Source: an uncultured Chloroflexia bacterium (lineage in GTDB: Bacteria > Chloroflexota > Dehalococcoidia > GIF9 > UBA5629). From it: a DNA stretch of 64,000 nucleotides. Positions within the stretch are counted from its first letter, which is position 1; each line of letters begins with the position of its first letter. The stretch lies in the NCBI GenBank assembly GCA_963842805.1, contig CAWJIA010000012.1, positions 284,623-348,622 of the forward strand, given 5' to 3'. The translations under genes and the position numbers were made by a program. Positions 13,699 to 19,617 of the stretch are shown one piece after another. A model generated the notes under the pieces. It was given only the letters and a program-made list of their open reading frames with translations, searched no databases and was not told the origin of the DNA.

Positions 13699-14736
13699 AT
13701 GTGGCAAACCGCCGGCCAGGACCTGATTATTAAAATAATCAGGGATTCCATCAAGCTCCGCTCACTGGCACACGCTTATCTCTTTGTCGGCCCGGCTCAC
13801 GTGGGCAAGATGACCTTGGCTCTCGACCTAGCCAGGGCCTTGAATTGCCATAGCGGCATACCCCCCTGCAGCTCTTGCCACACCTGCCAGCGCATCGGGG
13901 AGGGTAAATATCCCGACGTAATCGTTATCGATAAAAATGTCGGCCGCGAACCGAAGGACCGTAAAAAGGCCACTGAAATCAGCATAGATACCATCAGGGA
14001 AATGATGCAGCGCGGCTCCAATTTGCCTCCTTATGAAGGTAAATACAAAGTATTCATCATAGAAGATGCCGACTTAATGTCGGAAGAAGCCGCCAACTGC
14101 CTGCTTAAAACACTGGAGGAGCCACCCCACTATATACTGATTATCCTGCTTACAACCGAAGAGCATAAGCTGCTGCCAACCGTGCTATCAAGGTGTCAGA
14201 GGTTCGAACTTAAACCCGTATCCATACCGGAAATAGAGGAAAGGCTATCTAGCAGGGAAGGTATCCCTGCAGAAAAGATAAAGCTGCTGGCCAAGCTTTC
14301 CGGGGGTTGTTTGGGCTGGGCTTTGAACGCCCTGGACGATGACGGATATCTTATGAACCGCAAAGACAGGTTATCTGAATTCATTTCACTTATAGGACAG
14401 AACTGGGGCGAGAGACTATCATACGTGCAGCAGTTGCCTTCCGATAGGAATAGTGCCGAAGAAATTCTGAAGCTGTGGATATTATGGTGTCGCGATGTTC
14501 TGCTGATAAAATATAATTGTGATGGAGCGGTCGTTAATATAGACTGTGTAGAGGACCTTAAAGCCTGGGCCAATATGTTGACCGTTCCTGAAATAAAGGA
14601 ATTTATCGATTGTTTGAACATGTCCACTATCAATCTAAATCGCAATATGAACCTGCACCTGTTATTTGAAGTAATCATGCTCGACATGCCGAGAAAGGAG
14701 AAGCGGGGCGAATACGCAATCAATTCCTCCCGCTAA
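13699..14736 (+). CDS. holB: DNA polymerase III delta-prime subunit (clamp-loader AAA+ subunit)
   Basis: Walker A-like LFVGPAHVGKMTLA, a Cys4 zinc module (CHSGIPPCSSCHTCQRI) and an SRC motif are all present. Its start codon abuts the lysA stop. Confidence 0.8.
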   Translation: MWQTAGQDLIIKIIRDSIKLRSLAHAYLFVGPAHVGKMTLALDLARALNCHSGIPPCSSCHTCQRIGEGKYPDVIVIDKNVGREPKDRKKATEISIDTIREMMQRGSNLPPYEGKYKVFIIEDADLMSEEAANCLLKTLEEPPHYILIILLTTEEHKLLPTVLSRCQRFELKPVSIPEIEERLSSREGIPAEKIKLLAKLSGGCLGWALNALDDDGYLMNRKDRLSEFISLIGQNWGERLSYVQQLPSDRNSAEEILKLWILWCRDVLLIKYNCDGAVVNIDCVEDLKAWANMLTVPEIKEFIDCLNMSTINLNRNMNLHLLFEVIMLDMPRKEKRGEYAINSSR

Positions 14737-14744
14737 GATAAATA

Positions 14745-15557
14745 ATGTCAGTTATAGTTGGAGTACGCTTCACCCAAGCGGGGAAGATATACCATTTCGA
14801 TACGGCCGGCCTGAGTCTCAATCTGAATGAGATGGTAGTTGTCGAAACCAATCGCGGCCAGGAGTTGGGAAAGGTAGTAGTAGCCGCCAAAGAGGTGACA
14901 CTTGAGGAAAACGCCGAGCCGTACAAGCCTATAATCCGCATGGCCACACCGGAAGATATCTCACAGGCGGAACACCAGCGAGGGCGGGCCAAAAAAGCGC
15001 TGTCTAAAAGCAAGGAGCTGATAGAAAGCCTAAATCTACCGATGAAGGCCATCTACGCCCAATACAATCTGGACGGCGGCCATCTCATTGTATTTTTCTA
15101 TTCCGAGAAAAGGGTGGATTTCCGCGAACTGGTGCGCAAGCTGAGCCACGAGCTGAGGACACACGTAGAGCTCAGACAGGTCGGTGCAAGAGATGAGGCC
15201 AAGCTGATCGGCGGGGTGGGCAAGTGCGGATGCCAGCTATGCTGCGTGTCATTCTTGAACGAATTTGTGCCGGTTTCTATCAAGATGGCAAAGGAACAGG
15301 ATATTGCCCTCAACCCCATGAAGACGTCCGGCCTGTGCGGCCGCCTGCTTTGCTGTCTGGGCTATGAATACGATCAATACCGCGATATGAAATGTAAATT
15401 GCCCGACATCGGCCAGGAAATTCAGACTAAGATGGGAAGGGCCAAGATAGTCGGAAGAAACGTAATTAAGGCAACTTTTATGGCCGAACTTGAAACCGGC
15501 GTAACGATTGAAGTCCCTATCAATGAAGCAGTCTTGATAAACCCTTCACGGACTTAA
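14745..15557 (+). CDS. PSP1 C-terminal domain protein (RicT/YaaT-like)
   Basis: 270 aa with a Cys cluster (CGCQLCC...CGRLLCC). It follows holB, as yaaT does in Bacillus. Confidence 0.65.
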   Translation: MSVIVGVRFTQAGKIYHFDTAGLSLNLNEMVVVETNRGQELGKVVVAAKEVTLEENAEPYKPIIRMATPEDISQAEHQRGRAKKALSKSKELIESLNLPMKAIYAQYNLDGGHLIVFFYSEKRVDFRELVRKLSHELRTHVELRQVGARDEAKLIGGVGKCGCQLCCVSFLNEFVPVSIKMAKEQDIALNPMKTSGLCGRLLCCLGYEYDQYRDMKCKLPDIGQEIQTKMGRAKIVGRNVIKATFMAELETGVTIEVPINEAVLINPSRT

Positions 15558-15571
15558 GAGTCTGCTTCAGC

Positions 15572-16138
15572 CTACCTGGCATGCGGCAGATATTTCTGCC
15601 ATTCTTCCCGGGCCCTTAAATATTGATACGGTATATAGAAACCTACGTTGCCAGGCGCCCTAGGCTGCCTCAGCAACGGCATACTTGCCTCGGTGGGTGT
15701 CCTGCCGGCTTTGCGCCTGTTACAGGGTATGCAAGCGGCCACAATATTCTCCCACGTGTGCTCGCCCTTGCGCCGCCTGGGAATAACATGGTCCAGCGTC
15801 AGCTCTTTACCTTCCCTGCCGCAATACTGGCAGGTATATTTATCCCTGTTGAATATCTCCATTTTAGTCATTTTGCGGGGATGGGAATGTTTGCGTACCA
15901 AATATATCAGCCGGATTACGGAGGGTATTTCATAACTAGCTGAGCTGGCGGCAAAGTACCCGCGCCCATTCTCCACCACCTCCGCCTTGCCTACCAGCAC
16001 AAGCACCACCGCCCTGCGAACTCTGCAAATGTTCAAAGGCAGGTAGTTCTCATTTAAAACTAAAACAGGTTGGTTAATAATAGTATCGTTCACTTTCGTG
16101 TCAGAAAATATTTTAACAGGAAATAATAGCAGCCTCAA
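15572..16138 (-). CDS. HNH endonuclease (COG1403-type)
   Basis: HNH motif CQYCGREGKELTLDHVIPRRRKGEHTWENIVAACIPCNRRK. The N-terminal region LVLNENYLPL...GKAEVV is typical of the widespread small HNH family. The true start may lie downstream of the first ATG. Confidence 0.75.
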   Translation of the reverse strand: MRLLLFPVKIFSDTKVNDTIINQPVLVLNENYLPLNICRVRRAVVLVLVGKAEVVENGRGYFAASSASYEIPSVIRLIYLVRKHSHPRKMTKMEIFNRDKYTCQYCGREGKELTLDHVIPRRRKGEHTWENIVAACIPCNRRKAGRTPTEASMPLLRQPRAPGNVGFYIPYQYLRAREEWQKYLPHAR

Positions 16139-16156: not shown

Positions 16157-17569
16157 CTAGTTCCTGGTCTTAGAGCGGTTGCGAGTGGGCCCGCTGGTCT
16201 TCAAGTCGCCACGGTAGTCCGTCGCAATCATTTCAAAGACCAGGCTGATGCTGGGATCAACCATGCGGGAGCTAATACGCCGATCTATCTCATCGAGGTT
16301 AAAATAGGTTGTGATGACAGTGGCCAGCCGTGCATTGTAGCGGTAGTTGATCAACTGATAGAGCTTTTCTTGAGCCCACGGCGTAGCCGAATGTTCGCCG
16401 AAATCATCCAGTATCAAAACAGGTATCTTCTTAATTTTTTCAAAAAGGGCATCATAGGAAACGCGGCTTTCAGGACCGAAGGAAGACCTTAGATGGTCGA
16501 GCAGGTCCGGAACCACGATAAAAAGTACCTGCTTTCCCGATTCACGCAACTGGTTGGCAATGGCTGCCGCCAGATGCGTCTTGCCGCAGCCGTTCAGCCC
16601 CTGCAATACCAGCCAACCCTGAGGGGATTTGGCAAAATCGCTCGCATTGCTGAAGGCCTTCTCCAGGTTCTGCCGAACGTCCTCGGACACACTGAGCCCT
16701 TTGCAGTTAAAATTTTCGAACCTCATGTTTTTTAAGAGCTCAAGGTCCAGGCTATCAAGGCTTTGCAGGCTGGAAGACTCTTTCTTCAATATCAGCACCT
16801 TGCTGACCTCGGGATCATTGATATGCCCGGCATAATCATTATCAAACTCTTCGACGGCCATGCTGGTGGTAATCAGGGTAGGCAGCCTGCTGTTGAAGCG
16901 ATGCTCAAGCAAATGGTCAAGCTTGCTTTTGGACCAGTCCGTGGTACCGGAATAATTTAAATTATCCAGGATGAGCAGTTGACTATCCTTAATCTGCTCA
17001 AAAAGCTCATCGTACTCAATCTCGCTGTTGGGATTAAAAGCCGATCTCAGGTGGTCGAGTAACTCGGAGACGGTTATATAGAATGCCGGATAGCCCTGAT
17101 TTATGCGGAAGTTGGCTACTGCACAGGCCATATGGGTTTTACCGCTGCCGACCGGCCCGACCAAAACAATCCATCCCTGCGGGTTTTCGGCAAACTTATG
17201 TATCTCATCCAGTGCAAGCTGGAAAAGCTTCTGAGAGACCGGTGAATTACTGCGCCCGGTAGGCAGAAGATTATCGAAGGTCAGCTTGGAAAGATTCCCC
17301 AGGTTGCTTAGGGCTTGAAGCCGGGAGGCGCGCTTATTGGCGGATTCCTGCCTGGCGCAAACGCAGGGTATCAGACGCCCGTAGTCAGGTTCGCCTGAAG
17401 GCATCAAAGGATGGATGAACCTGGTCCCGTGGCATTGGGGGCACTCGCCCTGTTTTTCAGTGCCTGCGGCCGGTGTGTCAGGACTATCGCTGGACCATGT
17501 GTCCGTATTTTCCCCTGATGTACCTGTCGGGATCTCTTTCTTTCCGAGAATCTCCGAGATGTTTTCCAT
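16157..17569 (-). CDS. Helicase-loader-like protein with N-terminal Cys4 zinc ribbon and two tandem DnaC/DnaI-type AAA+ modules
   Basis: Module 1 has Walker A GPVGSGKTH and a Walker B-like LLILDNL. Module 2 has Walker A GLNGCGKTH and Walker B VLILDDFG. The N-terminal ribbon is CPQCHG...CVCAR. The annotated start overlaps the upstream DnaD-like gene by 86 nt, so the real start may be internal. Confidence 0.6.
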   Translation of the reverse strand: MENISEILGKKEIPTGTSGENTDTWSSDSPDTPAAGTEKQGECPQCHGTRFIHPLMPSGEPDYGRLIPCVCARQESANKRASRLQALSNLGNLSKLTFDNLLPTGRSNSPVSQKLFQLALDEIHKFAENPQGWIVLVGPVGSGKTHMACAVANFRINQGYPAFYITVSELLDHLRSAFNPNSEIEYDELFEQIKDSQLLILDNLNYSGTTDWSKSKLDHLLEHRFNSRLPTLITTSMAVEEFDNDYAGHINDPEVSKVLILKKESSSLQSLDSLDLELLKNMRFENFNCKGLSVSEDVRQNLEKAFSNASDFAKSPQGWLVLQGLNGCGKTHLAAAIANQLRESGKQVLFIVVPDLLDHLRSSFGPESRVSYDALFEKIKKIPVLILDDFGEHSATPWAQEKLYQLINYRYNARLATVITTYFNLDEIDRRISSRMVDPSISLVFEMIATDYRGDLKTSGPTRNRSKTRN

Positions 17570-18203
17570 CTTTTTTCCCTTCTCTTTCCCAGCTCTTCAA
17601 AATGCTGTGGACGTATTTCCAATTTCGTACGTTAGCCCTGATGGCTTCCTTGAAAGCCTCCTGTATCCAGTCCGCCGGGTATTTAAGCTCGGCTTCCTGC
17701 AATTCCTCCCAAAGAATGGGCGTGACCATCCCGATATTTTGCTCGTAGAGATTATATATATCGGAAAGTTGTTCACGTACGGATTCATCTATCTTCCTTA
17801 TATTTATGTTGGGGATCTTCAATGTGCCGCTTTCTATTTTCGCTATGGTCTCCCTGTCGGCCTGATTATTAATGAAGTAGGCATCGTCATGCTGGCCGCC
17901 TTCTTCTATCGGGACATGAATCAGGATGCCCTGCTTAACCGCCAGGTCAAGCGCTTCCCTCAGCAGGTCGCCCGATTTGCCCGGCAAAGAGAACAGTCCC
18001 TTCATCAATACTGGGTCGTTGATTAACTCCTTATAGGCGACAAACCGGGGATAACCCTTCCTTCTGCTCAACAGGAATATCTGCATAACCGCCTTGGCTT
18101 CGGCCAGGTTTTCAATGCCCGGCAACACTTCGGTGAAAAAAATATTGGGCAGCGGTGTAACCTCCGCCCTGGCCGGAAAACCCTTGAAACTGCTTTCGCT
18201 CAT
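17484..18203 (-). CDS. DnaD-like replication initiation / primosome protein (winged-helix N-domain plus DnaD C-terminal domain)
   Basis: The C-terminal segment YEQNIGMVTPILWEELQEAELKYPADWIQEAFKEAIRANVRNWKYVHSILKSW aligns with the B. subtilis DnaD DDBH2 domain, including the YxxxIxxxW motif. It sits between the dnaB helicase and the DnaI-like loader. Confidence 0.7.
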   Translation of the reverse strand: MSESSFKGFPARAEVTPLPNIFFTEVLPGIENLAEAKAVMQIFLLSRRKGYPRFVAYKELINDPVLMKGLFSLPGKSGDLLREALDLAVKQGILIHVPIEEGGQHDDAYFINNQADRETIAKIESGTLKIPNINIRKIDESVREQLSDIYNLYEQNIGMVTPILWEELQEAELKYPADWIQEAFKEAIRANVRNWKYVHSILKSWEREGKKDGKHLGDSRKERDPDRYIRGKYGHMVQR

Positions 18204-18225: not shown

Positions 18226-19617
18226 CTATGTGACGGCGCCGACTTCCACGATCATGTTATCGAATTTTGTCATTTCCTGTATGAACCTCAACGGTACCTC
18301 ACCCGTGGGTCCGTTGCGGTTCTTGGCGATTAAAATGTGTGCAATCCCTTTGGGATATGGCTCCTGGTCACCATATTCCCGCTGCCAGTCCGCCTCGGTG
18401 GGATAAATCTTGTCCCAGCGGTGTATGAACATGACGACGTCGGCATCCTGCTCGATGCTGCCGCTGTCCCTCAGGTCGGATAGCTGGGGCTTCACCTGCT
18501 GCTTTAGCCTCTTGCCCTCCTGGCGGTGCTCGATGTTGCGGCTTAACTGAGACAAAGCCAGAACTGGGGCATCGATCTCCCTGGCAAGGGCTTTGAGCGA
18601 TTGAGTGATCTCGGTAATCTCCTGCACGCGGTTGTCATTCCTGGAATCGCCGCGCACCAGCTGTATATAGTCGAGGATCACCATGTCCACATTACGCCTG
18701 AGATGCAGCCTTTTGGCCTTGCTGCGGATTTCGCTGATACGCATATTGGGCGTGTCGTCGATATATATTGAAGTATCGGCTAGCCGGGGGATAATATCAC
18801 GGTGCAGCAGCTTCTCTTCCAGGTCGGAAAACCTTCCCTTGCGGAAATGCTGCGATTCGATATTGGCCTCGCTGGAGAGCATCCTCTGTATAATTTCACG
18901 GCGTGACATTTCCAGGCTGAAGATAGCGATACAAGCTTTCTGATTGATAGCCGCATTGCGGGCTATATTCAAAGCTAAACTGGTCTTGCCGATGCTGGTC
19001 CTGGCCGCCAGTATAACCAACTCGGACCGCTGAAGCCCGCCCAGGGCATTGTCTATGGCGTTAAACCCGGTCCTCAAGCTCTGCATATCTTTTTCGTAGG
19101 GGGTCTTGCCCGCCTCTTCGAAATAGGTGTTTAAGGCATCCTGAATGGGCACGAATTCGCCTCGGCCCTGCTTGTTCCTGAGCTTAAAAATGATGTCCTC
19201 GCACCTCGTCAAAGCGAGGTCGACATCCGGATCGGCTTTATATCCTATCGATTCAATCTGACCGGCCGCGCTTATCAGGCGCCGCATAGTCGAGAGCCTG
19301 AATACGATCTGAGCGTAGTGCTTCACATGCAGGGAGGTCGGCACTATGGAAACGAGGTGGCTCAGATAAGAAGCTCCTCCGATCTCATCGAGCTTGCCAT
19401 GGCGCACCAGTTCCTGTGCTACCGTTATCTGGTTGATGGCCTCGTCGCGCAGGGAGAGGTTGTGGCAGGCGCTATAAACGAGCTGGTTTTGTTCGCTGAA
19501 AAAGTCCTCGGTGCCAATGATGGTATCGATCTCCGGGATCGCTTCGCTGTCTATGAGAAGCGATCCCAGGACTGCTTCTTCAGCATCCAGATCATAAGGA
19601 GGAAGGGTCTCTTTCAT
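18226..19617 (-). CDS. dnaB: Replicative DNA helicase (DnaB family)
   Basis: 463 aa with an N-terminal DnaB domain, Walker A ARTSIGKTSLALN and RecA-like H1-H4 motifs. It lies downstream of rplI, as in many bacteria. Confidence 0.9.
   Translation of the reverse strand: MKETLPPYDLDAEEAVLGSLLIDSEAIPEIDTIIGTEDFFSEQNQLVYSACHNLSLRDEAINQITVAQELVRHGKLDEIGGASYLSHLVSIVPTSLHVKHYAQIVFRLSTMRRLISAAGQIESIGYKADPDVDLALTRCEDIIFKLRNKQGRGEFVPIQDALNTYFEEAGKTPYEKDMQSLRTGFNAIDNALGGLQRSELVILAARTSIGKTSLALNIARNAAINQKACIAIFSLEMSRREIIQRMLSSEANIESQHFRKGRFSDLEEKLLHRDIIPRLADTSIYIDDTPNMRISEIRSKAKRLHLRRNVDMVILDYIQLVRGDSRNDNRVQEITEITQSLKALAREIDAPVLALSQLSRNIEHRQEGKRLKQQVKPQLSDLRDSGSIEQDADVVMFIHRWDKIYPTEADWQREYGDQEPYPKGIAHILIAKNRNGPTGEVPLRFIQEMTKFDNMIVEVGAVT

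What the first reader, a model, noticed from the sequence alone, without database searches (positions are those of the whole stretch)
16157..17569. Tandem-duplicated DnaC/DnaI-type helicase-loader ATPase with Zn ribbon; first module has degenerate Walker B
One polypeptide contains two complete DnaC/IstB-type AAA+ modules. Each is followed by the same ...LLDHLRS[A/S]F... element, showing an internal duplication (ELLDHLRSAF versus DLLDHLRSSF).

Module 2 keeps a canonical Walker B (LILDDFG). Module 1 reads LILDNLN, with Asp-Asn instead of the acidic pair. Module 1 may therefore bind ATP but not hydrolyse it, making it a built-in pseudo-ATPase or regulatory subunit.

The N-terminal CPQC...CVC ribbon resembles the DnaB-binding Zn domain of DnaI. 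A covalently dimeric helicase loader is unusual; loaders normally oligomerise from single-module protomers.
Basis: seen in the sequence. Interest (0 to 1): 0.6.

Follow-up and report, generated by a model that had tools for sequence, protein, structure and literature searches.

The report
Two-module helicase loader of Chloroflexota
This gene encodes the protein that most likely loads the replicative DNA helicase, but unlike the E. coli and Bacillus loaders it has two ATPase modules in one chain, one apparently non-catalytic; this design is standard across Chloroflexota and I found no paper describing it.

Summary
ORF 16157-17569 (-) encodes a 470-aa protein. It has an invariant four-Cys zinc ribbon and two DnaC/DnaI/IstB-class AAA+ modules that are 41% identical to each other (E=1e-44).

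It is not a frameshift or assembly artefact. Full-length tandem homologues occur in at least 80 independent Chloroflexota genomes, of 510 with a relative. All 80 share the chromosomal order rplI-dnaB-dnaD-like-loader. Both modules are under strong purifying selection (dN/dS 0.058 and 0.044).

The interpretation needs correcting in three places:
- The Walker B Asp-to-Asn change is present here but in only 63 of 121 close homologues.
- The consistent degeneracy of module 1 is loss of the arginine finger (His249 in 114/121) and of sensor II. It keeps an invariant P-loop and all four ssDNA-contact residues.
- The "LLDHLRSxF" repeat lies inside each module and corresponds to the DnaC ssDNA-binding element. 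The zinc ribbon shows no detectable sequence similarity to DnaI-N.

Module 2 keeps Walker A and B, the Arg coupler and finger, and sensor II. Related Chloroflexota show the mirror arrangement (module 2 degenerate), one-module derivatives and a four-module form.

Best reading: this is the resident helicase loader, with a catalytic module 2 and an ATP- and ssDNA-binding but non-hydrolysing module 1. Stoichiometry and geometry remain open. I found no published description. I rate it a new variant of a known kind.

The parts
16157..17569 (-). Complete CDS of the tandem helicase loader (470 aa)
   Evidence: Full-length homologues of 51-93% identity.
17484..17569 (-). 86-nt out-of-frame overlap between the loader start (codons 1-28) and the 3' end of the dnaD-like gene
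   Evidence: The overlap is present in all 80 related loci. dS is 0.20 here against about 1.3 elsewhere. An SD-like GAGAAGGGA lies upstream of the ATG.
17357..17443 (-). N-terminal four-Cys zinc ribbon (residues 43-71, CPQC-22-CVC); presumed helicase-binding domain
   Evidence: C43, C46, C69 and C71 are invariant. pLDDT is about 80-85. No Pfam or PDB sequence match to DnaI-N. Helicase binding is inferred from its position only.
17282..17353 (-). Helical linker between the ribbon and module 1 (residues 73-96, ...LQALSNLGNLSKL); the 5' edge of the duplicated unit
   Evidence: Helices 73-87 and 91-95. It resembles the module 1-module 2 linker LQSLDSLDLELLKNM (seen directly in the sequence).
16784..17293 (-). 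AAA+ module 1 (residues 93-262). It binds nucleotide and ssDNA by motif but lacks the catalytic and trans-acting elements
   Evidence: Matches DnaI 4m4w and DnaC 6qel/3ec2 at E=1e-10 to 1e-11. dN/dS 0.058.
17132..17158 (-). Module 1 Walker A, GPVGSGKTH (138-146)
   Evidence: G138, G141, G143, K144, T145 and H146 are invariant.
17036..17065 (-). Module 1 ssDNA-binding element, ELLDHLRSAF (169-178; R175/F178 = DnaC K143/F146)
   Evidence: The tetrad is defined in PMC8213410.
16955..16978 (-). Module 1 degenerate Walker B, LLILDNLN (198-205)
   Evidence: D202 in 120/121. Position 203 is N in 63 and D in 58 of 121. It aligns with DnaC E170.
16823..16837 (-). Module 1 box VII remnant, D245-Y-A-G-H249, in place of the Arg coupler and Arg finger
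   Evidence: H249 in 114/121, R in 6/121. Aligned to R431-x3-R435.
16736..16783 (-). Conserved inter-module linker (263-278, KESSSLQSLDSLDLEL). It starts where sensor II would be
   Evidence: dN/dS 0.036. pLDDT is below 50 at residues 264-270.
16205..16735 (-). AAA+ module 2 (residues 279-455): the catalytically equipped module
   Evidence: Matches DnaI 2w58 and DnaC 6qel at E=4e-14. dN/dS 0.044. 67% identical to the one-module relative P0148 in the BLASTP alignment of query residues 278-469.
16574..16600 (-). Module 2 Walker A, GLNGCGKTH (324-332)
   Evidence: Invariant G324, N326, G327, G329, K330, T331, H332. K330 = DnaC K112.
16478..16507 (-). Module 2 ssDNA-binding element, DLLDHLRSSF (355-364; R361/F364 = DnaC K143/F146)
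16397..16420 (-). Module 2 canonical Walker B, VLILDDFG (384-391)
   Evidence: D388, D389 and G391 are invariant. D389 = DnaC E170.
16265..16279 (-). Module 2 box VII, R431-I-S-S-R435 (Arg coupler and Arg finger)
   Evidence: R435 in 121/121 and R431 in 97/121. The R-x3-R pattern matches DnaC R216/R220. HMMER's ungapped register puts R435 on R216, so the assignment rests on the pattern.
16211..16219 (-). Module 2 sensor II, D451-Y-R453
   Evidence: D in 119, Y in 117 and R in 119 of 121. It corresponds to the DnaC SYR motif with R237 (the function of R237 is; the motif match rests on my own knowledge).
17484..18203 (-). Upstream DnaD/DnaB_2-domain protein (239 aa), presumed co-loader
   Evidence: Pfam DnaB_2 at 1.9e-10, TIGR01446 DnaD_dom at 6.5e-13, PHROG 'DnaD-like helicase loader' at 1e-18. 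Present in 80/80 loci.
18226..19617 (-). Replicative helicase DnaB (463 aa), the presumed client
   Evidence: TIGR00665 at 469.7 bits against a cut-off of 385. Syntenic in 73 of 80 loci; all seven without a detected dnaB are loci where the contig ends upstream.

Best explanation
This is the resident chromosomal loader of the DnaB replicative helicase in a Dehalococcoidia-class Chloroflexota bacterium. It is co-transcribed and probably translationally coupled with dnaB and a DnaD-domain co-loader.

An internal duplication of the unit 'linker + AAA+ core' (about 186 residues) produced the chain zinc ribbon - module 1 - module 2.

Module 2 carries a nearly full DnaC-type catalytic set: Walker A, Walker B DD, Arg coupler and finger R431/R435, and sensor II R453. 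The canonical sensor I Asn is replaced. Module 2 is the module that hydrolyses ATP and donates an arginine finger.

Module 1 keeps an invariant P-loop, the Mg-binding Asp and the four ssDNA-contact residues. It has lost the arginine finger (His249), sensor II and, in this genome, the second Walker B acid. It therefore most likely binds ATP and ssDNA but neither hydrolyses ATP nor stimulates hydrolysis in a neighbour. It would act as a built-in non-catalytic assembly or DNA-binding subunit.

Module 2's cis and trans catalytic residues stay invariant while module 1 has no finger to offer. I therefore infer that module 2 sites are completed by module 2 of another chain. That implies a DnaC-like spiral of module 2s, with module 1 forming a second, ATP-locked layer next to the helicase-binding ribbon.

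What is shown: the architecture, the motif states, the conservation, the selection and the synteny. What is inferred: helicase binding by the ribbon, ATP and ssDNA binding by module 1, and the oligomer geometry and stoichiometry.
For: Architecture and homology:
- Two IstB/DnaC-type stretches.
- 41% self-identity between modules.
- Each module matches DnaI and DnaC by sequence; in the Foldseek search the best single-module targets were DnaI 2w58 and DnaC 3ec2/3ecc, TM 0.70-0.78 normalised to the target.

Real and conserved:
- More than 100 full-length homologues.
- 510 species genomes encode a relative, and all 80 fetched loci are tandem.
- dN/dS is 0.058 for module 1, 0.044 for module 2 and 0.036 for the linker.

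Loader role:
- The order rplI-dnaB-dnaD-like-loader is invariant in 80 loci of 51-87% identity.
- The flanks are core genes: rpoB, rpoC, ruvB, lysA, holB, mfd.
- Chloroflexi genomes were scored as having one dna[CI] gene and no dciA (PMC5109545).
- Phage relatives are DnaD-like plus DnaC-like pairs.

Motif asymmetry:
- The mapping to functionally tested E. coli DnaC residues is.
- In DnaC, loss of any one of K112, E170, N203, R220 or R237 abolishes ATPase activity, yet loading persists at a reduced to wild-type level.

Module 1 is accessory:
- The one-module P0148 lineage (44 members, contigs up to 531 kb) is a module 2 orthologue whose closest relatives are tandem proteins (67-81% identity to their module 2). 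This indicates secondary loss of module 1.
Against: - There is no biochemical or structural evidence for this family.
- AlphaFold2 does not fix the relative orientation of the modules (pTM 0.48 for the full chain, 0.52 for the two-module fragment). The geometry rests only on the argument from motif conservation.
- The canonical sensor I Asn (DnaC N203) is absent from module 2 as well. It is Y422 here and Cys in most homologues. Module 2 may therefore be a weak or unconventional ATPase.
- In wider relatives the degenerate module usually keeps its arginine finger (36 type A and 28 type B representatives). That pattern fits an alternating module 1-module 2 filament better than homotypic contacts.
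- The Arg-finger assignment depends on the R-x3-R pattern, because HMMER's ungapped register differs by four residues.
- Absence of dciA or of a second loader was not checked in this genome, since only 64 kb is available.
Confidence: 0.7

Rival explanations
1. Pre-formed loader dimer. The two modules pack head to tail like neighbouring DnaC/DnaI protomers. Three chains, giving six AAA+ modules and three zinc ribbons, then cover one DnaB hexamer in an alternating module 1-module 2 spiral. Module 1 sites would be ATP-locked 'glue' completed by R435. Module 2 sites would face His249 and be slow or switch-like.
For: - The Bst DnaB-Bsu DnaI crystal structure shows the loader as a trimer of non-equivalent dimers on the hexamer (PMC3791466).
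- The duplicated unit includes the linker, and the inter-module linker is short and highly conserved.
- In most distant tandem relatives the degenerate module retains its Arg finger. This is expected if it completes the competent module's site.
- Whether module 1 or module 2 degenerates differs between lineages, yet most representatives appear to keep at least one competent module (sensor II and finger scored on 91 representatives).
Against: - In this clade module 1's finger is His in 114/121. An alternating spiral would then leave no fully competent site.
- Even so, module 2's Walker B D389, R435 and sensor II R453 remain invariant or nearly so (119-121 of 121).
- AlphaFold2 gives no confident intramolecular AAA+-AAA+ interface.
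- Three ribbons per hexamer would leave half of the loader-binding sites on DnaB unused.
Confidence: 0.25
2. Sequencing or assembly artefact: two adjacent ordinary DnaC-like genes joined by a frameshift or a lost stop codon.
For: None found for this gene. A few other database entries with near-identical repeats and garbled C-termini (P0122, P0127) do look like assembly problems.
Against: - The same uninterrupted 1410-nt ORF with no stop occurs in ten independent MAG loci of 69-87% identity.
- Full-length alignments occur in 80/80 loci and in more than 100 proteins from JGI, NCBI, ENA and Logan.
- The linker is under strong purifying selection (dN/dS 0.036).
- Module 1 has no sensor II or C-terminal tail of its own, and module 2 has no ribbon. 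Neither half looks like a stand-alone gene.
Confidence: 0.01
3. Mobile-element protein rather than the chromosomal loader: either an IS21-type IstB transposition helper or the replication module of an integrated prophage.
For: The best Pfam family is IstB_IS21. PHROG 'DnaC-like helicase loader' and 'DnaD-like helicase loader' match the two genes. Bacillus phages carry the same DnaD-like/DnaC-like gene pair. An HNH endonuclease gene lies immediately downstream.
Against: - The NCBIfam IstB equivalog scores 144 against a cut-off of 200.
- There is no IstA transposase or integrase nearby.
- Synteny with rplI-dnaB, and in 46-51 of the 80 loci with HNH-PSP1-holB, is fixed across genomes down to 51% identity. 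That is not the behaviour of a mobile element.
- Phage and viral relatives are one-module proteins.
- Published phylogenomics treats the Chloroflexi gene as a domesticated resident dna[CI].
Confidence: 0.03
4. Module 1 is an inert structural spacer that binds neither ATP nor DNA.
For: It has lost three of the five catalytic motifs. A natural one-module derivative exists.
Against: - GxxGxGKTH is invariant in module 1, and D202 is kept in 120/121.
- The ssDNA-tetrad equivalents R175, F178, T210 and W212 are 89-100% conserved.
- dN/dS is 0.058.
- None of this would be expected without ligand binding.
Confidence: 0.08

Closest known systems
Bacillus/Geobacillus DnaI (helicase loader working with DnaD and DnaB co-loaders)
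   Same: - Domain order: N-terminal zinc-binding domain, then a linker, then an initiator-clade AAA+ module.
- The AAA+ modules match 2w58 and 4m4w (E=4e-14 to 1e-12; Foldseek TM 0.71 to 2w58).
- A DnaD/DnaB_2-domain gene lies immediately upstream.
- DnaI sits on the helicase as a trimer of non-equivalent dimers.
   Different: - Two AAA+ modules per chain instead of one.
- The ribbon is CxxC-22-CxC with no detectable similarity to DnaI-N.
- The NCBIfam DnaI model scores 122 against a cut-off of 228.
- One module lacks the Arg finger and sensor II.
E. coli / Aquifex DnaC
   Same: - Same AAA+ clade.
- Module 2 has Walker A, Walker B, the ssDNA tetrad, the R-x3-R box VII and a sensor II counterpart of R237 (tetrad, R216/R220 and R237 functions; E. 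coli 'SYR' motif recalled from memory).
- Foldseek TM to the target is 0.77-0.78 for 3ec2 and 3ecc.
   Different: - The DnaC model scores 122 against a cut-off of 357.
- The N-terminal helicase-binding domain is different.
- The architecture is tandem.
- The sensor I Asn is replaced by Tyr or Cys.
Clostridial/phage 'DnaC-like' loaders (NCBIfam PRK08116 / PRK06921; PHROG 50)
   Same: These are the best-scoring curated families: PRK08116 at 213.6 bits against a cut-off of 189, and PRK06921 aligning from residue 32 through the ribbon into module 1. PHROG 50 scores 1.5e-83. They share the DnaD-like/DnaC-like gene pairing.
   Different: Those proteins have one module of about 260-330 aa. Here the score above the cut-off comes from summing two modules.
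AAA+ assemblies with built-in non-catalytic subunits or modules (clamp loader delta/delta', ORC, NSF D2, p97 D1)
   Same: The logic is the same: a nucleotide-binding but hydrolysis-dead AAA+ module serves assembly while a sister module does the catalysis (general knowledge of these families). Whole-chain Foldseek hits are tandem AAA+ proteins of the p97/Cdc48 type.
   Different: Those hits superpose poorly (TM 0.35-0.40, rmsd above 10 A). The modules here belong to the initiator/loader clade, not the classic clade. I found no report of tandem modules in a bacterial helicase loader.

Membership tests
DnaC/DnaI/IstB AAA+ superfamily (Pfam PF01695) | Profile match above the curated threshold | tested here: met
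   112 bits against a cut-off of 24.1, in two stretches.
DnaC/DnaI/IstB AAA+ superfamily (Pfam PF01695) | AAA+ fold of the initiator/loader clade | tested here: met
   AF2 modules have pLDDT of about 80-95. Foldseek TM to the target is 0.71 for DnaI 2w58, 0.77 for DnaC 3ec2 and 0.60 for IstB 8q3w.
DnaC/DnaI/IstB AAA+ superfamily (Pfam PF01695) | Complete catalytic set: Walker A, Walker B acid, sensor I, Arg finger, sensor II | tested here: inconclusive
   Module 2 has all of these except the canonical sensor I Asn, which is Tyr or Cys. Module 1 has Walker A only; it carries D-N at Walker B, His at the finger position and no sensor II.
DnaC/DnaI/IstB AAA+ superfamily (Pfam PF01695) | ssDNA-binding residues (DnaC K143, F146, S177, Y179) | tested here: met
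   R361/F364/T396/W398 in module 2 and R175/F178/T210/W212 in module 1, all at least 89% conserved.
DnaI (Firmicutes primosomal loader) | Equivalog model NF006505 above its cut-off | tested here: not met
   121.7 bits against a cut-off of 228.
DnaI (Firmicutes primosomal loader) | DnaI-N zinc-binding helicase-interaction domain | tested here: not met
   No Pfam hit for residues 1-110 at E<=10. The ribbon profile A2 does not hit DnaI chains in the PDB. A structural comparison of the ribbon alone was not possible.
DnaI (Firmicutes primosomal loader) | Works with a DnaD/DnaB_2-domain co-loader | tested here: met
   A DnaD-domain gene lies immediately upstream, overlaps the loader gene, and is present in 80/80 loci. 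A physical interaction cannot be tested here.
E. coli-type DnaC | Equivalog model NF005931 above its cut-off | tested here: not met
   122.1 bits against a cut-off of 357.
IS21 IstB transposition helper | Equivalog model NF038214 above its cut-off, and an adjacent IstA transposase | tested here: not met
   144.2 bits against a cut-off of 200. The neighbours are DnaD-like, DnaB and HNH genes, with no transposase.
Replicative helicase loader (functional class) | Conserved genomic linkage to the replicative helicase gene in a chromosomal context | tested here: met
   rplI-dnaB-dnaD-like-loader occurs in every locus whose contig extends upstream far enough. The flanking genes are core genes.
Replicative helicase loader (functional class) | Binds and loads DnaB, with ATP-dependent oligomerisation on ssDNA | not testable with these tools
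   Requires biochemistry or cryo-EM.
Replicative helicase loader (functional class) | It is the only loader: no DciA or second dna[CI] in the genome | not tested
   Only 64 kb is available. The literature table lists one dna[CI] and no dciA for the Chloroflexi genomes whose rows were retrieved from its table.
Type II (double-ring) classic-clade AAA+ (p97/NSF/ClpB) | Stacked D1/D2 arrangement and classic-clade modules | tested here: not met
   Foldseek TM is 0.35-0.40 with rmsd of 11-17 A. The modules match loader-clade families instead.

The most novel reading that the evidence does not exclude
Chloroflexota load their replicative helicase with a distinct machine. It would be a covalent hetero-pair of loader AAA+ modules in which one module is a permanently ATP-bound, ssDNA-binding non-catalytic subunit. 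This would impose either a loader-to-helicase stoichiometry other than the canonical 6:6 single-module spiral (three chains per hexamer) or a two-tier, twelve-module loader. Different lineages would have independently chosen which module to inactivate, and would occasionally have expanded to four modules or reverted to one.
Probability: 0.3. Interest if true: 0.7.

Novelty: new variant of a known kind. Interest (0 to 1): 0.55.

Why it matters
Bacterial helicase loading is understood from one-module loaders: DnaC, DnaI, and phage P and lambda-type proteins. It remains unsettled how many loader ATP sites must fire, and whether loaders act as a six-fold spiral or as a trimer of dimers.

A whole phylum appears to use a natural covalent dimer with one apparently inactive site. 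This offers a ready-made 'forced heterodimer' experiment. Natural controls exist alongside it: mirror-image variants, one-module revertants and a four-module form.

It also matters for annotation. These genes are currently labelled only 'ATP-binding protein' or 'DnaC'. The feature is specific to a lineage that includes the organohalide-respiring Dehalococcoidia and the marine SAR202 group.

Tried and rejected
1. Frameshift or assembly artefact: rejected by comparative data.
2. Inter-module geometry from AlphaFold2: the full chain gave pTM 0.48 and the two-module fragment 0.52. The modules are confident but their relative orientation is not. No coordinates or PAE were available, so the side-by-side versus stacked question stays open.
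3. Foldseek against the PDB: whole-chain hits to p97/Cdc48 are poor superpositions (TM 0.35-0.40) and say nothing about the arrangement. The afdb50 library was not available.
4. Zinc ribbon as DnaI-N: no Pfam hit. A 48-sequence profile hits only CxxCxGxG knuckles of UvrA and DnaJ.
5. One or several duplication events: a neighbour-joining tree of 192 modules puts type A module 1 in one clade next to part of type A module 2, and puts type B module 2 on long basal branches. This suggests separate histories. However, neighbour joining on sequences about 35-45% identical is not reliable, and no maximum-likelihood program was at hand. The question is left open.
6. Phage origin of the tandem form: phage and BFVD relatives are all one-module proteins.
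7. Literature: five full-text searches and the DciA papers gave no description of a tandem DnaC/DnaI loader. The library does not cover all journals.
8. Cultured Dehalococcoides: I could not establish whether its listed dna[CI] protein (Q3Z917) is tandem.
Full report
OBSERVATION

The minus-strand ORF 16157-17569 runs from ATG to stop and encodes 470 aa. Pfam IstB_IS21 matches in two stretches, as does NCBIfam PRK08116. Residues 93-259 align with 279-445 without gaps at 41% identity, E=1e-44.

The start codon is credible for three reasons. A purine-rich GAGAAGGGA precedes it. The N-terminus ME.L.EILKKK is conserved in homologues. In codons 1-28, where the gene overlaps the 3' end of the upstream gene in another frame, synonymous divergence collapses to dS 0.20 against about 1.3-1.5 elsewhere. 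That is what dual coding predicts.

NOT AN ARTEFACT

More than 100 proteins of about 470 aa and 55-93% identity cover the whole query. A scan of one genome per species found 510 genomes with a relative. The best 80 loci, all Dehalococcoidia or Chloroflexota MAGs and including closed chromosomes, carry the full tandem. Ten loci of 69-87% identity contain the same uninterrupted 1410-nt ORF.

Selection is strongly purifying on both modules: dN/dS is 0.058 for module 1, 0.044 for module 2 and 0.036 for the linker.

CONTEXT

All 80 loci have a DnaD-domain gene overlapping the loader start by about 80 nt. Wherever the contig reaches far enough, dnaB and rplI lie upstream. HNH-PSP1-holB follow downstream in roughly 50 loci.

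In the window, the flanking genes are rpoB, rpoC, ruvB, lysA, holB, fabD and mfd. This is core chromosome, with no transposase or integrase. Brezellec et al. (PMC5109545) counted one domestication of dna[CI] in Chloroflexi. Their table lists one dna[CI] gene and no dciA for the Chloroflexi genomes retrieved (Anaerolinea, Chloroflexus, Roseiflexus, Dehalococcoides). The gene is therefore best read as the resident helicase loader.

ANATOMY

Residues 1-40 are disordered (pLDDT below 50). Residues 43-71 form a four-Cys ribbon with invariant cysteines. Residues 73-96 form a helical linker.

I mapped the modules onto the E. coli DnaC residues tested by Puri et al. 2021 (PMC8213410) and checked the numbering.

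Module 2:
- K330 corresponds to K112.
- D388-D389 corresponds to D169-E170.
- R361/F364/T396/W398 correspond to the ssDNA tetrad K143/F146/S177/Y179.
- R431-x3-R435 corresponds to the Arg coupler R216 and Arg finger R220. R435 is present in 121/121 sequences.
- D451-Y-R453 corresponds to sensor II R237 (R453 present in 119/121).
- The sensor I Asn (N203) is replaced by Tyr here and by Cys in most homologues. This is a caveat on how good an ATPase module 2 is.

Module 1:
- The P-loop G138-H146 is invariant, and D202 is kept in 120/121.
- The ssDNA residues R175/F178/T210/W212 are conserved.
- Position 203 (equivalent to E170) is Asn in 63 and Asp in 58 of 121 sequences.
- The coupler position is Asp/Ser/Asn, and the finger position is His249 in 114/121.
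- The chain passes into the inter-module linker exactly where sensor II should be.

So the repeated LLDHLRSxF is the ssDNA-binding element inside each module. The stable hallmark of module 1 is the loss of the finger and sensor II, not the Walker B change.

The Arg-finger assignment follows the R-x3-R pattern; the E. coli R216-x3-R220 spacing is, while its occurrence in DnaA and DnaI box VII is from my own knowledge. HMMER's ungapped register places R435 on R216, so I flag this as an ambiguity.

WIDER FAMILY

An exhaustive search of 1.84 billion cluster representatives gave 608 clusters at E<1e-30. Of the best 150, 91 are 400-510 aa long, and most of these have two P-loops.

Two mirror-image subtypes appear:
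- Type A resembles the query. Module 2 is canonical with PDYR, and module 1 lacks sensor II. It carries Dehalococcoidia, SAR202 and Tepidiformaceae names.
- Type B has a canonical module 1 (TTN sensor I, RIRSRL, PDYR) and a degenerate module 2. It carries Anaerolineales and Chloroflexota names.

In most distant members the degenerate module still has an Arg at the finger position.

Other forms also exist:
- A four-module protein with four near-canonical modules, P0121, seen on two contigs.
- One-module relatives with the same N-terminus.
- P0148 (278 aa, 44 member sequences, contigs up to 531 kb) has an AAA+ module 67% identical to the query's module 2 but only 40% identical to module 1. Its nearest relative is the module 2 of a tandem protein, at 81%. 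This indicates secondary loss of module 1.

Phage and viral relatives are one-module proteins, often next to a DnaD-like gene.

MECHANISM

In E. coli DnaC, ablating any one of the five catalytic residues abolishes ATPase activity. Helicase loading nevertheless persists at a reduced to wild-type level. Module 1 lacks three of those residues and should not hydrolyse ATP. Its invariant P-loop, its Mg-binding Asp, its DNA-contact residues and its low dN/dS argue that it still binds ATP and ssDNA.

Module 1 also cannot supply a finger. Module 2's cis-acting residues (D389, R453) and trans-acting residues (R431, R435) remain invariant or nearly so (97 to 121 of 121). The simplest reading is that module 2's site is completed by R435 of another chain's module 2. 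That gives a DnaC-like spiral of module 2s, with module 1 forming an ATP-locked, DNA-binding layer proximal to the ribbon.

The rival model is an alternating module 1-module 2 spiral with three chains per DnaB hexamer. It is attractive for two reasons. DnaI binds as a trimer of non-equivalent dimers (PMC3791466). Distant relatives retain the degenerate module's finger. In this clade, however, that model would leave no fully competent site.

AlphaFold2 does not resolve the matter (pTM 0.48 and 0.52). I give the general account 0.7 confidence. Between the two geometries I favour the homotypic one only modestly.

COMPARISON WITH KNOWN FAMILIES AND NOVELTY

The protein belongs to the DnaC/DnaI/IstB AAA+ superfamily. 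It fails the curated equivalog thresholds for DnaC, DnaI and IstB, and its ribbon is not detectably DnaI-N. Functionally it is closest to the DnaI plus DnaD system.

I found no description of a tandem-module bacterial helicase loader in five full-text searches or in the relevant DciA/dna[CI] papers. Databases call it 'ATP-binding protein' or 'DnaC'.

My verdict is that this is a real, conserved, phylum-wide new variant of a known kind. It is of moderate to good interest to replication specialists.

Noticed in passing
window 17484-17569 (-): The dnaD-like gene and the loader gene overlap by 86 nt in different frames. The overlap is present in all 80 related loci. Synonymous divergence in the loader's first 28 codons is about seven-fold lower than elsewhere (dS 0.20 against about 1.3). 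This fits dual coding and probable translational coupling.
   Followed up: partly
window 15572-16138 (-): A 188-aa HNH endonuclease gene lies 18 nt downstream of the loader stop codon. It is conserved at this position in 51 of 80 loci. Its HNH domain resembles that of IscB/Cas9d only at domain level (58 bits against a cut-off of 175). Its function here is unknown.
   Followed up: partly
window 13699-15557 (+): holB (DNA polymerase III delta') and a PSP1-domain gene converge on the loader operon and are syntenic in about 46 of 80 loci. Together with the operon they form a small replication gene neighbourhood.
   Followed up: no
P0121 (827 aa, metagenomic; not in the window): A relative with one zinc ribbon and four diverged AAA+ modules. 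All four have Walker A, a DD Walker B and the GRI(Y/F)SRL box VII; the first three keep the sensor II Arg (PDYR/PNFR/PDYR), while the fourth reads PDYQ. It was seen on two contigs of up to 64 kb. The three-module P0122 and P0127 have near-identical repeats or garbled ends and may be assembly artefacts.
   Followed up: partly
P0124, P0128, P0134, P0136 and others (type B; not in the window): This is the mirror-image architecture. Module 1 is fully canonical (TTN, RIRSRL, PDYR) and module 2 is degenerate, with the Walker B glycine or sensor II lost. Named members are Anaerolineales or Chloroflexota.
   Followed up: partly
P0148 (278 aa; not in the window): A one-module derivative: the same N-terminus and ribbon fused directly to a module 2 orthologue. 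It is 67% identical to the query's module 2 and 81% identical to that of tandem protein P0118. It has 44 member sequences on contigs of up to 531 kb. This suggests a clean secondary deletion of module 1.
   Followed up: yes
window 16304-16306 (-), residue 422: The canonical sensor I Asn of DnaC/DnaI (N203 in E. coli) is Tyr here and Cys in most close homologues of module 2. It is Ser or Asp in module 1. Type B module 1 keeps Asn. Whether T420/T421 substitute is unknown.
   Followed up: partly
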